Assembly: GCA_002269645.1 (NCBI GenBank)
Contig: NIVC01000926.1
Coordinates: 62,001-126,000, forward strand
Length of the DNA stretch: 64,000 nt
Direction of reading: 5' to 3'
Origin: Macrostomum lignano
Lineage: Eukaryota
Positions within the stretch are counted from its first letter, which is position 1. Each line of letters starts with the position of its first letter. Shown here in pieces: positions 4,827 through 6,959 of the stretch. The translations under genes and the position numbers were made by a program. The notes below the pieces were generated by a model that was not told the origin of the DNA, did not search any database, and saw nothing but the letters and a program-made list of their open reading frames with translations.

Positions 4827-5531
4827 TTATAAAACTATCCGGTTTGAAGATCTATTGTTTTGAAAAAAAGATCTGTTTTCTTTTGATTTGATTTGATTTT
4901 GATGAAATTTGATAATTTCATCTGTAGACATGACCGGACGAGCAGTAGATTCTGCTTCATCAATAGCAATATCACAAAGATTGAGTGTTCTCTCCAGACG
5001 ATCAAGCCTCCTTATTATTTTACCCCAAGAGCTATACATTCCGTTTAGATAGCTACTGTGTGATACATCCTTTCTCTTTAATGCTTCAAGTCTTTCTTTG
5101 ATTCGATCATGCAACGCTGTTGACTGGTTCATGAACTCTTCTAAATTATTTACTTTAGCTGTGTTTGTGAAAACTCCTCCTTCAAGAATACGCATCCGTC
5201 TATCAGTGGAATTTCCCAGAAGATTAACTGTCGATGTTAACCCATTGATTTGCGAGACTACCGAAGTTATTTCTGACCTAACTTCATTAGTTGCGTGTGC
5301 AAACTGCGCATAAAGCTTATCACTTTCAAACTTCTGCCTAGCTACTTTAAGCCTGAGATCTTCCATGTTTATTTGCAACTGGTGCATGGAGCGCTCTAGG
5401 GCTTTCAGTCTGTTTTTATTCAGTTTGATCTCTGGGATCTCTTCATCAGTGTTAATGTAGCGCTTGTCAAGGAAGGAAGTTGTGAGAGTGCTGTTGCCTG
5501 TAGTTGACTCATTAGCAAAATTAATAGACAT
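4827..5531 (-). CDS. Polinton accessory coiled-coil protein (ORF X), function unknown
   Basis: 234-aa open frame, AAAAAAATG start, heptad-like Leu/Glu/Arg pattern. Confidence 0.6.
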   Translation of the reverse strand: MSINFANESTTGNSTLTTSFLDKRYINTDEEIPEIKLNKNRLKALERSMHQLQINMEDLRLKVARQKFESDKLYAQFAHATNEVRSEITSVVSQINGLTSTVNLLGNSTDRRMRILEGGVFTNTAKVNNLEEFMNQSTALHDRIKERLEALKRKDVSHSSYLNGMYSSWGKIIRRLDRLERTLNLCDIAIDEAESTARPVMSTDEIIKFHQNQIKSKENRSFFQNNRSSNRIVL

Positions 5532-5547
5532 TTTTTTAAATGAAAAA

Positions 5548-5974
5548 TTAAAGTAAAATTCTTTTCTCCTTATTAATCATGACAAACTGATAGGGTTGGT
5601 TCCACTTTTCATAGCATATGTTAACAAATTCCTCCTGTGATATTGTTCTGTTAGAGTTCTTAGCTGGATATGTAATGTGAGCTGGGGCAATGACTTCATT
5701 ATAAAATCGTTTCAGTCGATCCTGTGGTATGGTTGGGAAAAGGAGAATCAAATTACAGTTACCTCTAATTGTTTTATTTGGCAGTTCAAACCAGTTTTGG
5801 GCAATGTAAATAACATTGCAGTTATTGTGTCTACCCCGGGTGAAATAATTTTCTATCTGTTTCTGGGGACCGGTCATGCAGTCATCAAAGACAATCAGGT
5901 GCTTTCTCCCCTTTTCTAGTTCATCAGGTTGAGGTAAGAGTTTAGTTTTAGGATCTATCTGTGGATCTCCATAT
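5548..5974 (-). pseudogene. Second, 5'-truncated copy of the packaging ATPase (C-terminal half)
   Basis: YGDPQIDPKTKLLPQPDELEK...HLIVFDDCMTGPQ...RGRHNN; nearly identical in protein to the C-terminal half of 6159-6959 but lacks Walker A. Confidence 0.88.
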
Positions 5975-6142
5975 CTGTAGCTGGTGCATGGAGCGCTCTA
6001 ATTGTTTCAGTCTGTTTTTATTCAGTTTGATCTCTGGGATCTTTTCGTCGCTGTTGATATATCGCCTGTCAAGGATGGATATTTGAGCTGATGTAAGAGT
6101 GTTGTTGCCAGAAATGGATTCACCTGCAAAATTAATAGACAT
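5970..6142 (-). pseudogene. Second, 3'-truncated copy of ORF X
   Basis: MSINFAGESISGNNTLT...LDRRYINSDEKIPEIKLNKNRLKQLERSMHQLQI parallels the N-terminus of 4827-5531. Confidence 0.8.
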
Positions 6143-6158
6143 CTTTTATTAGCAAATT

Positions 6159-6959
6159 TTAAATTACAGTTCTTTTTTCCTTGTTGATCATGACAAACTG
6201 ATAGGGTTGGTTCCACTTGTCATAGCAAAGATTAACGAATTCCTCCTGTGAAATCTTTCTGTTTGAGTTTTTTGTTGAATTTATAAAATAGGCAGGCGCA
6301 ATGACCTCCTTGTAAAATCTTTTTAGCCTGTCCTGTGGAATGGTTGGAAACAGGAGAATCAGATTGCAGTTCCCACGAATTGTTTTGTTCGGGAGCTCGA
6401 ACCAGTTCTGTGCAATGTAAATTACATTACAATTGTTATGTCGTCCTCTTGTAAAATAGTTTTCTATCTGCTTCTGTGGGCCTGTCATACAATCATCAAA
6501 GACGATCAAATGCTTTCTCCCCTTTTCTAGCTCATCTGGTTGGGGTAGAAGTTTGGTCTTTGGATCCACCTGCGGATTTCCATAGGTGAACACTTTAATG
6601 TTCTGCCATTTTTCATTGTCTTTGAGGTGCTTTGCATATTCGGCAGCTACAATTTCTGGGTTACTGGGAAGGTTTTGTTGGTTTTTAAAACATTGAATAA
6701 TGTCCTCTTTGTTCAGTTTGTTTTGCAATCCAGAAATCAGCATTTTATACTCATCTTGATACAGTGTGGGAGAGTAGATGTGCAGAGTGTCATAGTCGAT
6801 AAAGCCAGGTCTAAGAAGCATGTTAAAGACTCTGAATGTTTTACCTGAACCTGATGAACCAACAACAATGCATCTGAAGTGACTCGGGATTGACTCGTGA
6901 TGAGAAAACTTAATCTGATTACGCGTCCAGTGAGGATTGAAGTCGTTTGAAAAGTCCAT
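6159..6959 (-). CDS. A32/FtsK-HerA family genome-packaging ATPase
   Basis: Walker A GSSGSGKT, Walker B LIVFDD, RGRHNN arginine-finger region, IAQ motif; true start inferred at MDFSNDF (AAAAAATG). Confidence 0.92.
   Translation of the reverse strand: MDFSNDFNPHWTRNQIKFSHHESIPSHFRCIVVGSSGSGKTFRVFNMLLRPGFIDYDTLHIYSPTLYQDEYKMLISGLQNKLNKEDIIQCFKNQQNLPSNPEIVAAEYAKHLKDNEKWQNIKVFTYGNPQVDPKTKLLPQPDELEKGRKHLIVFDDCMTGPQKQIENYFTRGRHNNCNVIYIAQNWFELPNKTIRGNCNLILLFPTIPQDRLKRFYKEVIAPAYFINSTKNSNRKISQEEFVNLCYDKWNQPYQFVMINKEKRTVI

What the first reader, a model, noticed from the sequence alone, without database searches (positions are those of the whole stretch)
5350..6560. The Polinton is a chimera: two diverged lineages joined at a microhomology
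Seen: ~600 bp (ATPase C-half plus ORF X N-terminus) occurs twice. The two ATPase copies are identical over the 59 residues from MTGPQ, yet about 34 of those 59 codons differ synonymously (manual count). The junction (~5964-5974) falls where ORF X reads ATGGAAGATC and the ATPase reads ATGGAGATC. Inference: neutral decay of a tandem duplicate cannot give this pattern; both copies evolved under purifying selection in separate elements that then recombined out of register, which implies co-infection or inter-element recombination.
Basis: partly seen in the sequence, partly recalled or inferred. Interest (0 to 1): 0.75.

Follow-up and report, generated by a model that had tools for sequence, protein, structure and literature searches.

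The report
Polinton joining two old gene alleles
A dead copy of a virus-like transposon (a Polinton) carries two separately evolved versions of the same 600-base gene stretch, both of which also occur without the duplication in public sequencing runs; they were likely joined by sloppy DNA repair or copying within one recombining family, but the joint itself is not yet confirmed in reads.

Summary
The duplication is real: 5370-5973 (A) and 5972-6584 (B), 79% identical, 34 of 59 codons differing synonymously over an identical 59-residue run; pN/pS 0.05/0.74 excludes neutral decay. Contigs of four public runs hold both unduplicated parent types: an A-type contig with one ATPase (611 bases shorter) and a B-type contig that continues ORF X in frame. 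The arms do not look like two separate lineages: outside about 4800-7300 the A and B types appear to share one backbone, and short A-like patches segregate among B-type contigs. Best reading: two old alleles of an ATPase-ORF X cassette in one high-copy, recombining Polinton family, joined out of register once, likely by homologous invasion on one side and end joining on the other; co-infection is not needed. The joint is neither shown nor excluded by reads (no bridging contig among 32 of 4960 pieces listed); mis-assembly stays at about 20%. This copy is decayed. Chimeric copies and module swaps are known in Galileo, EMALEs and nematode Polintons.

The parts
1..3516 (+). Protein-primed DNA polymerase B gene, broken (cut by the window's left edge)
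   Evidence: Pfam DNA_pol_B_2 E 9e-7 above cut-off; relatives 38-51% from animals among the 120 listed; 4-6 frame changes against three full-length relatives
3668..4069 (+). Adenain-like maturation protease
   Evidence: Pfam Peptidase_C5 E 1.6e-4, above cut-off
4036..4602 (-). 188-aa ORF of unknown function; likely part of the backbone shared by A- and B-type elements
   Evidence: ORF; single contigs 97-98% alike at B-level depth in X5 (tables 3 and 8)
4827..5531 (-). ORF X copy A, open (234 aa), coiled-coil-like, no family; variable among copies
   Evidence: only sub-cut-off Pfam hits; no homologs; Atlas best 0.83; an 84-base internal repeat variant and other C-terminal variants in runs
5548..5973 (-). 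A-type packaging ATPase, C-terminal half only
   Evidence: 124 of 139 residues identical to copy B; X5 record 18 and X6 record 25 match it with 7/506 and 2/265 differences
5972..5973 (.). Junction: 2-base overlap between B-type ORF X (codon 57) and A-type ATPase
   Evidence: loose ends before 5972 (X5) and behind 5973 (X15); joint 5973->6739 in X5
5972..6142 (-). B-type ORF X, first 57 codons; the frame runs 7 more residues into the A-type ATPase DNA and stops
   Evidence: X5 record 19 matches 5981-6629 with 14/649 differences
6005..6042 (.). 38-base tract identical in copies A and B (=5403-5440)
6126..6218 (.). Two further tracts identical in A and B (6126-6142, 6187-6218) at which B-type contigs are polymorphic: likely conversion patches
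   Evidence: five synonymous variants 6134, 6137, 6201, 6204, 6210
6159..6959 (-). B-type A32-like packaging ATPase, complete (266 aa)
   Evidence: Pfam Pox_A32 E 4.6e-6 above cut-off; 60 relatives, best 78%
7003..7129 (.). 21-base tandem repeat upstream of the ATPase
7293..7322 (.). Likely right edge of the divergent cassette: A-type and window-like contigs end in the same 30 bases
   Evidence: X6 joint 6963->7293 (depth 271, side 30) and record 29 ending at 7322
7559..8806 (-). Two Q/P-rich ORFs (283 and 118 aa) of unknown function
8837..10123 (+). Double jelly-roll major capsid gene with one in-frame stop near 9710
   Evidence: 71% to P0061 in one frame over 8837-10117; P0061 passes Pfam DJR-like_dom, 19 of 31 aligned members match; Atlas 0.97 to DJR and virophage capsid clusters
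10144..11006 (+). Candidate minor capsid gene, frame change near 10880; identity untested
   Evidence: position next to the capsid gene; no Pfam hit
11443..11737 (.). 81-base tandem repeat, candidate part of the right terminal repeat
   Evidence: the left end is outside the window, so it cannot be paired

Best explanation
The window holds a decayed Polinton with an A-type and a B-type version of the ATPase-ORF X stretch joined 611 bases out of register at a 2-base overlap, both versions also occur unduplicated in public runs, and the join was likely made once between two members of one recombining family, probably by homologous strand invasion on one side and end joining on the other. Shown: the copies diverged under purifying selection to near synonymous saturation; each parent type exists with a single ATPase or an unbroken ORF X; the overlap is 2 bases; this copy has since decayed. 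Inferred: A and B are alleles of a roughly 1.9-kb cassette (about 4800-7300 in window terms) on a largely shared backbone; a break in one element was repaired, or a replicating strand switched template, by pairing with the other allele in the shared backbone, copying past the break and rejoining at 2 bases, which leaves one whole ATPase (B), one whole ORF X (A) and two stubs. Which allele was donor cannot be told. Short A-like patches among B-type contigs suggest that in-register exchange between the alleles recurs. The host's own resident copies suffice as partners.
For: (duplication, pN/pS, neutral null). X5 record 18 lies on 5467-5973 and 6739-6964 with 154 letters between, i.e. 611 fewer, equal to the copy offset; X15 loose end behind 5973 continues the ATPase (7 of 9 letters as copy B, by eye); X5 loose end before 5972 continues ORF X in register (24 of 30 letters as copy A, by eye). 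Backbone: X5 records 16, 17 (4200-4404, 4462-4783; depth 98.7, 144.9; sole contig at 4345, 4374 and 4545-4615) against A-type 33.3 and B-type 129.4-165.2; X6 records 27 and 29 end in the same 30 bases at 7293-7322. Patches: longest identical codon runs 12 and 10 of 194, permutation P 0.02 and 0.0006 for both; five synonymous sites inside A=B tracts differ in 100% of X6 and 51-92% of X1/X15 depth but not in X5's long B contig. Decay. The repair model itself is recalled (one-sided invasion, aborted synthesis-dependent strand annealing), not tested.
Against: No listed contig bridges 5972/5973 (32 of 4960 pieces shown). At 6 of the 40 variant rows shown (5512-5514, 6278, 6309, 7053; 135 rows not shown) no covering contig has the window's letter, so this exact copy is not seen in any of the four runs; contigs drop rare variants, so this is weak. 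The backbone argument rests on contig depths that the tool says are no copy number, on runs whose DNA nature is guessed, and on one 30-base join; in X6 the left-arm depth (290) fits A-type alone (160-350) as well as A plus B. Only 4200-7800 was laid, so polB, protease and capsid genes were not examined. The left end and target-site duplication are outside the window.
Confidence: 0.55

Rival explanations
1. Assembly artefact: a chimeric long read or a mis-join between two paralogous copies made the junction; the A/B allele system is real but this copy is not.
For: No bridging contig among the pieces listed; six window letters unseen in all covering contigs; high-copy families invite mis-joins; broken polB frames could be partly sequence error.
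Against: Overlap- and graph-based joins need long shared sequence and fall in register (own knowledge); here the overlap is 2 bases, off register, with no letter lost or added against either parent contig; the A-type contig runs through 5973 without ending there; the window has no N; window-only differences in 4200-7800 are mostly substitutions, and the capsid break is an in-frame stop, which looks like ageing rather than read error.
Confidence: 0.2
2. One reading: two Polinton lineages diverged along their whole length recombined out of register, so the left arm is lineage A and the right arm lineage B (co-infection or inter-element).
For: Deep synonymous divergence of the overlap; A-type N-terminal ATPase differs from the window by 37/226; X6 left-arm depth fits A alone; genes outside 4200-7800 untested.
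Against: X5 left-arm contigs 97-98% like the window at four times A-type depth, with no second contig laid at 80%; A-type contig rejoins the right arm at 7293-7322; both types present in all four runs.
Confidence: 0.1
3. Two neighbouring or nested insertions (one A, one B) were fused by a later deletion that ended at a 2-base overlap.
For: A 2-base overlap fits ordinary end joining; chimeric Galileo copies with non-matching target duplications are known (PMC3573991, passages); other rearranged copies at single-copy-like depth are seen in X1.
Against: A deletion unguided by homology would have to land within about 600 bases of register in a 12-15 kb element and keep orientation (roughly 1 in 10, own estimate); no second ATPase, polB or capsid match elsewhere in the window.
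Confidence: 0.1
4. One allele first duplicated in tandem by slippage; one of the two copies was later overwritten by the other allele through gene conversion (or, in the simplest form, the duplicate just decayed).
For: 2-base overlaps are typical of tandem duplications (own knowledge); conversion patches exist in this family.
Against: Neutral decay is excluded. Allele-specific letters reach to within 6 (A side) and 3 (B side) bases of the joint (alignment), so a conversion tract would have to end right at the joint.
Confidence: 0.05

Closest known systems
Polinton/Maverick elements (Polintoviricetes); vertebrate Mavericks, PMC8097293 (passages)
   Same: pPolB, protease, A32-like ATPase, double jelly-roll capsid; strong purifying selection between lineages; most copies degraded; several lineages in one genome
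   Different: Integrase, terminal repeats and target duplication could not be seen here; the passages read report no partial tandem of two alleles
Caenorhabditis briggsae Polintons with pPolB1 or pPolB2, 10.1101/2023.08.22.554363 (passages)
   Same: Alternative versions of one module on otherwise similar Polinton backbones within one host; recombination between Polintons invoked
   Different: There the swapped polymerases are 16% identical and ascribed to inter-phylum transfer; here the alleles are 89% identical in protein, close enough for homologous patchwork, the module is ATPase plus ORF X, and an out-of-register joint is preserved
Chimeric Galileo copies in Drosophila mojavensis, PMC3573991 (passages)
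   Same: 12 of 170 copies combine two subfamilies, others have a central part from another subfamily; ectopic recombination and conversion proposed; mis-assembly considered there too
   Different: Cut-and-paste transposon, in-register TIR chimeras; no capsid genes, no duplication of coding DNA from two alleles
EMALE02 of Cafeteria burkhardae, PMC8547959 (passages); mosaicism of Polisuviricotina, 10.64898/2026.10.13.758929 (abstract and section 11) and PMC11296320 (passages)
   Same: Recombinant endogenous small dsDNA viruses; module and sub-gene exchange described as common
   Different: Those exchanges join unrelated or distant modules between groups; here the exchange is between close alleles inside one family of an animal host

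Membership tests
Polinton/Maverick | [quoted passage not shown] | tested here: met
   Pfam PF03175 above cut-off; 239 relatives; broken in this copy
Polinton/Maverick | Retroviral-like integrase | not testable with these tools
   None among ORFs scanned; the element is cut by the window's left edge and no genome is held
Polinton/Maverick | A32-like packaging ATPase | tested here: met
   Pfam PF04665 above cut-off
Polinton/Maverick | Adenain-like protease | tested here: met
   Pfam PF00770, 21.9 bits against cut-off 21.3
Polinton/Maverick | Double jelly-roll major capsid protein | tested here: met
   By sequence only: 71-73% relative P0061 passes PF21738; Atlas 0.97; the window's own fragment has no Pfam hit; no PDB sequence hit; no fold was obtained
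Polinton/Maverick | Single jelly-roll minor capsid protein | tested here: inconclusive
   Candidate 10144-11006 by position; no Pfam hit; no fold was obtained
Polinton/Maverick | Terminal inverted repeats with AG..CT ends and 5-8-base target duplication | not testable with these tools
   Left end outside the window; an ACTACT at 11818-11823 overlaps the end of a palindromic element, and a CTACT at 11775-11779 is only a candidate
Microhomology-mediated junction | Shared bases at the breakpoint beyond chance | tested here: not met
   2-base overlap, P about 0.18; the 9-10-base match scores at null fraction 0.19
Whole-arm chimera of two lineages | Left- and right-arm genes group with different subfamilies | tested here: inconclusive
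   Contig depths and one graph merge in 4200-7800 point to shared arms; per-copy gene trees could not be built because no host copies were retrievable
Neutrally decayed tandem duplication | pN about equal to pS between copies | tested here: not met
   pN 0.050, pS 0.744

The most novel reading that the evidence does not exclude
An animal Polinton family behaves like a freely recombining, phage-like population: two ancient ATPase-ORF X alleles, saturated at synonymous sites, are kept side by side at different proportions in different host samples (and under two organism labels) on one homogenised backbone, exchange patches by homologous recombination, and ORF X is a hypervariable, possibly host- or defence-facing module under balancing selection. 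The window's joint is a fossil intermediate of that exchange that kept one whole copy of each gene.
Probability: 0.3. Interest if true: 0.65.

Novelty: new member of a known kind. Interest (0 to 1): 0.38.

Why it matters
The single chimeric, dead copy is minor: chimeric transposon copies and module swaps among Polinton-like viruses are known. What is worth a follow-up is the family behind it. If A and B alleles ride on one backbone and trade patches, Polinton subfamilies are not clonal lineages, single-gene trees and repeat-library entries misdescribe them, and a host with many copies of both alleles is a tractable place to ask where Polintons recombine (in the chromosome or as replicating genomes) and whether they still go through a virion stage, which the strong purifying selection on the packaging ATPase suggests.

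Tried and rejected
No genome is held for the window. Exact look-ups of 10 window proteins and of the junction-spanning 64-residue ORF found nothing, so no host copies were retrievable as proteins; best ATPase relatives are 62-78%; ORF X has no homolog (Atlas under 0.9). Locus searches found no relative in metagenome contigs and only one 32% match in viral contigs (L001, not used). An ATPase tree of 20 rows left A, B and their eight closest relatives unresolved; by identity A and B (89%) are closer to each other than to any database protein (at most 83%). GC3 by gene gave no clear arm signal (0.35-0.52, no split at the joint). No structure prediction was available. Earlier findings: none. Rejected: neutral tandem decay; the named microhomology; the 59-residue identity as a sign of special kinship. 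The host is not identified; a paper search with a guessed genus name gave one unrelated paper. Searches for a citable paper on one-sided invasion or aborted repair in transposons gave nothing fitting.

Full report
Setting. Bases 1 to about 11800 are the right-hand part of a Polinton/Maverick in a repeat-rich eukaryotic genome: polB (Pfam PF03175), adenain-like protease (PF00770), A32-like ATPase (PF04665) and a double jelly-roll capsid gene (71% to P0061, which passes PF21738; Atlas). The named polB relatives are from animals; the host itself is not identified and no genome is held. The copy is dead: polB shows 4 to 6 frame changes against three full-length relatives and the capsid gene has an in-frame stop near 9710.

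The observation. A self-comparison of 1-14000 finds one long duplication, 5370-5973 (copy A) against 5972-6584 (copy B), 79% identical. Over 139 ATPase codons pS is 0.744 and pN 0.050 (p 3e-41); over 53 ORF X codons pS is 0.45 and pN 0.10-0.12. Random change of the same amount gave at most 28 identical residues in a row in 20000 trials. Neutral decay of a duplicate is excluded. The 59-residue identity itself is ordinary for this family: P0001, 78% identical overall, is 59/59 there, and ten more relatives are 51-58/59.

Both parents exist. Eighteen of 20 listed runs, from six studies, hold the stretch or part of it. I laid four of them (X1, X15, X6 organism A; X5 organism B; all contigs) on 4200-7800 at 80% likeness. 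X5 record 18 (886 bases, depth 33) follows copy A over 5467-5973, has 154 other letters, and lands on 6739-6964 with 37 differences: it is 611 bases shorter than the window, exactly the offset between the copies, so it is an A-type element with one ATPase. A loose end behind 5973 in X15 continues the ATPase in frame (7 of 9 letters as in copy B, compared by eye). A loose end before 5972 in X5 continues ORF X in register (24 of 30 letters as in copy A, by eye), and X5 record 19 follows copy B over 5981-6629 (depth 129). A- and B-type contigs occur in all four runs.

The joint. These ends place B-type DNA down to 5972 and A-type DNA up to 5973: an overlap of two bases (TA), with nothing lost or added. 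Two or more shared bases are expected in 18% of random joins. It may have helped annealing but is not evidence. Allele-specific letters reach within 6 bases (A side) and 3 bases (B side) of the joint, so the join was made directly between an A and a B molecule.

Is the joint real DNA? Not shown. Table 8 lists 32 of 4960 pieces and none bridges 5972/5973; a single-copy link in a high-copy family would be short and is easily dropped from contigs. At 6 of the 40 variant rows shown (175 in all), no covering contig has the window's letter, so this exact copy is not visible in these runs. Against a mis-join: assemblers join long shared sequence in register (own knowledge), the A-type contig does not end at 5973, the window has no N, and window-only differences are mostly substitutions. 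I leave 20% for an artefact.

Arms. In X6 an A-type contig (record 27, depth 271) differs from the window over 6739-6963 and rejoins it at 7293, ending in the same 30 bases as the window-like record 29 (7101-7322); beyond it record 30 (7427-7640) has depth 270 and one difference: A-type elements seem to carry the same right arm. So the divergent part looks like a cassette from about 4800 to 7300.

Patchwork. Copies A and B share runs of 12 and 10 identical codons (permutation P 0.02; both 0.0006). Five synonymous variants in copy B (6134, 6137, 6201, 6204, 6210) lie in tracts where A and B are identical in the window, yet X6's only contig and 51-92% of X1 and X15 depth carry other letters there while X5's long B contig does not. 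Constraint would not give that; patches moved between alleles would (inference; only the 40 best-supported rows were seen). ORF X varies further: an 84-base internal repeat form (joint 5165->5093 with 11 letters between) in X1, X5 and X6, other ends at 5082-5091 and 5296, and the window's 4805-5046 part is thin in X6 (depth 6-40 against 160-350). In X1, contigs with private rearrangements have depth 69-95 while summed depth per bin is 4000-210000, which points to many copies without giving a number.

Mechanism. Most likely (0.55) a break or stalled replication in one element was rescued by pairing with the other allele in the shared backbone, synthesis ran past the break by about 600 bases, and the strand was rejoined at two bases: homologous on one side, end-joined on the other. 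This model (one-sided invasion, aborted synthesis-dependent strand annealing, or template switch during protein-primed replication) is recalled, not tested; two paper searches gave no fitting citation. The product keeps one whole ATPase (B) and one whole ORF X (A), so it could have been functional before it decayed; whether it formed in the chromosome or between replicating genomes is open. Rivals: mis-assembly 0.2, whole-arm chimera 0.1, fusion of two neighbouring insertions 0.1, duplication followed by conversion 0.05.

Known systems. Chimeric copies between subfamilies are described for Galileo (12 of 170; PMC3573991, passages); a recombinant endogenous virophage for Cafeteria (PMC8547959, passages); two polymerase classes on similar Polinton backbones for C. 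briggsae (10.1101/2023.08.22.554363, passages); widespread module and sub-gene mosaicism for Polisuviricotina (10.64898/2026.10.13.758929, abstract and section 11; PMC11296320, passages); strong purifying selection and mostly degraded copies for vertebrate Mavericks (PMC8097293, passages). Passages of 10.1101/2024.01.15.575659 and PMC12220804 added Polinton-mediated rearrangements and modular turnover. No supplements were read. In eight searches (listings only for the other papers) I saw no report of close ATPase-module alleles recombining inside one animal Polinton family, but the library lacks most subscription journals.

Verdict. Observation mostly confirmed; inter-element recombination supported; named microhomology, whole-arm lineages and co-infection not supported; junction unconfirmed in reads. 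A new member of a known kind, interest 0.38; the family-level mosaic reading (probability 0.3) would deserve about 0.65.

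Noticed in passing
window 40094-59933: A 19.8-kb element with long, internally repetitive inverted ends (99-100% complementary arms) and a perfect 7-base target duplication at 40087-40093 and 59934-59940; foldback- or Galileo-like by recall; no intact transposase ORF seen inside.
   Followed up: partly
window 43956-44451: Short ORF fragments inside that element resemble a decayed Merlin/IS1595-type transposase (motifs recalled, not tested).
   Followed up: no
window 4827-5531 (ORF X) in runs X1, X5, X6, X15: ORF X appears hypervariable across copies: 84-base internal repeat form, alternative 3' ends, replaced stretches at 4853-4915; coiled-coil-like, no homolog; might be a fibre or other host-facing protein (guess).
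   Followed up: partly
run X1 records 4, 5 and joints 6203->5689, 5598->5909: Further, more diverged or rearranged relatives of the ATPase region at depth 69-192: more than two types of this Polinton are present.
   Followed up: no
window 5512-5514: A three-base difference seen only in the window's copy A; all covering contigs in four runs read as copy B does there. The window's form repeats a 9-base word of the copy B spacer, possibly a templated change.
   Followed up: partly
window 11820-12175: Palindromic MITE-like element (11820-12060) with a partial second copy next to the Polinton's right end.
   Followed up: no
window 13817-15169 and 15821-16324: Open 450-aa DUF3504/tyrosine-recombinase (Crypton-like) ORF with a QRICH1 domain and a divergently oriented QRICH1-like ORF.
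   Followed up: no
window 21412-23153: Mariner-type transposase in pieces (HTH_48, Transposase_1).
   Followed up: no
window 34235-35993 and 30755-31889: Gag/protease-like LTR retrotransposon remnant and an RNase H-like non-LTR remnant by eye; no Pfam hit.
   Followed up: partly
window 28752-29303: WSC-domain exon, probably a host gene (PF01822, E 9e-10).
   Followed up: no
window 11020-11256: Small minus-strand ORF of about 79 codons after the minor capsid candidate; not searched.
   Followed up: no
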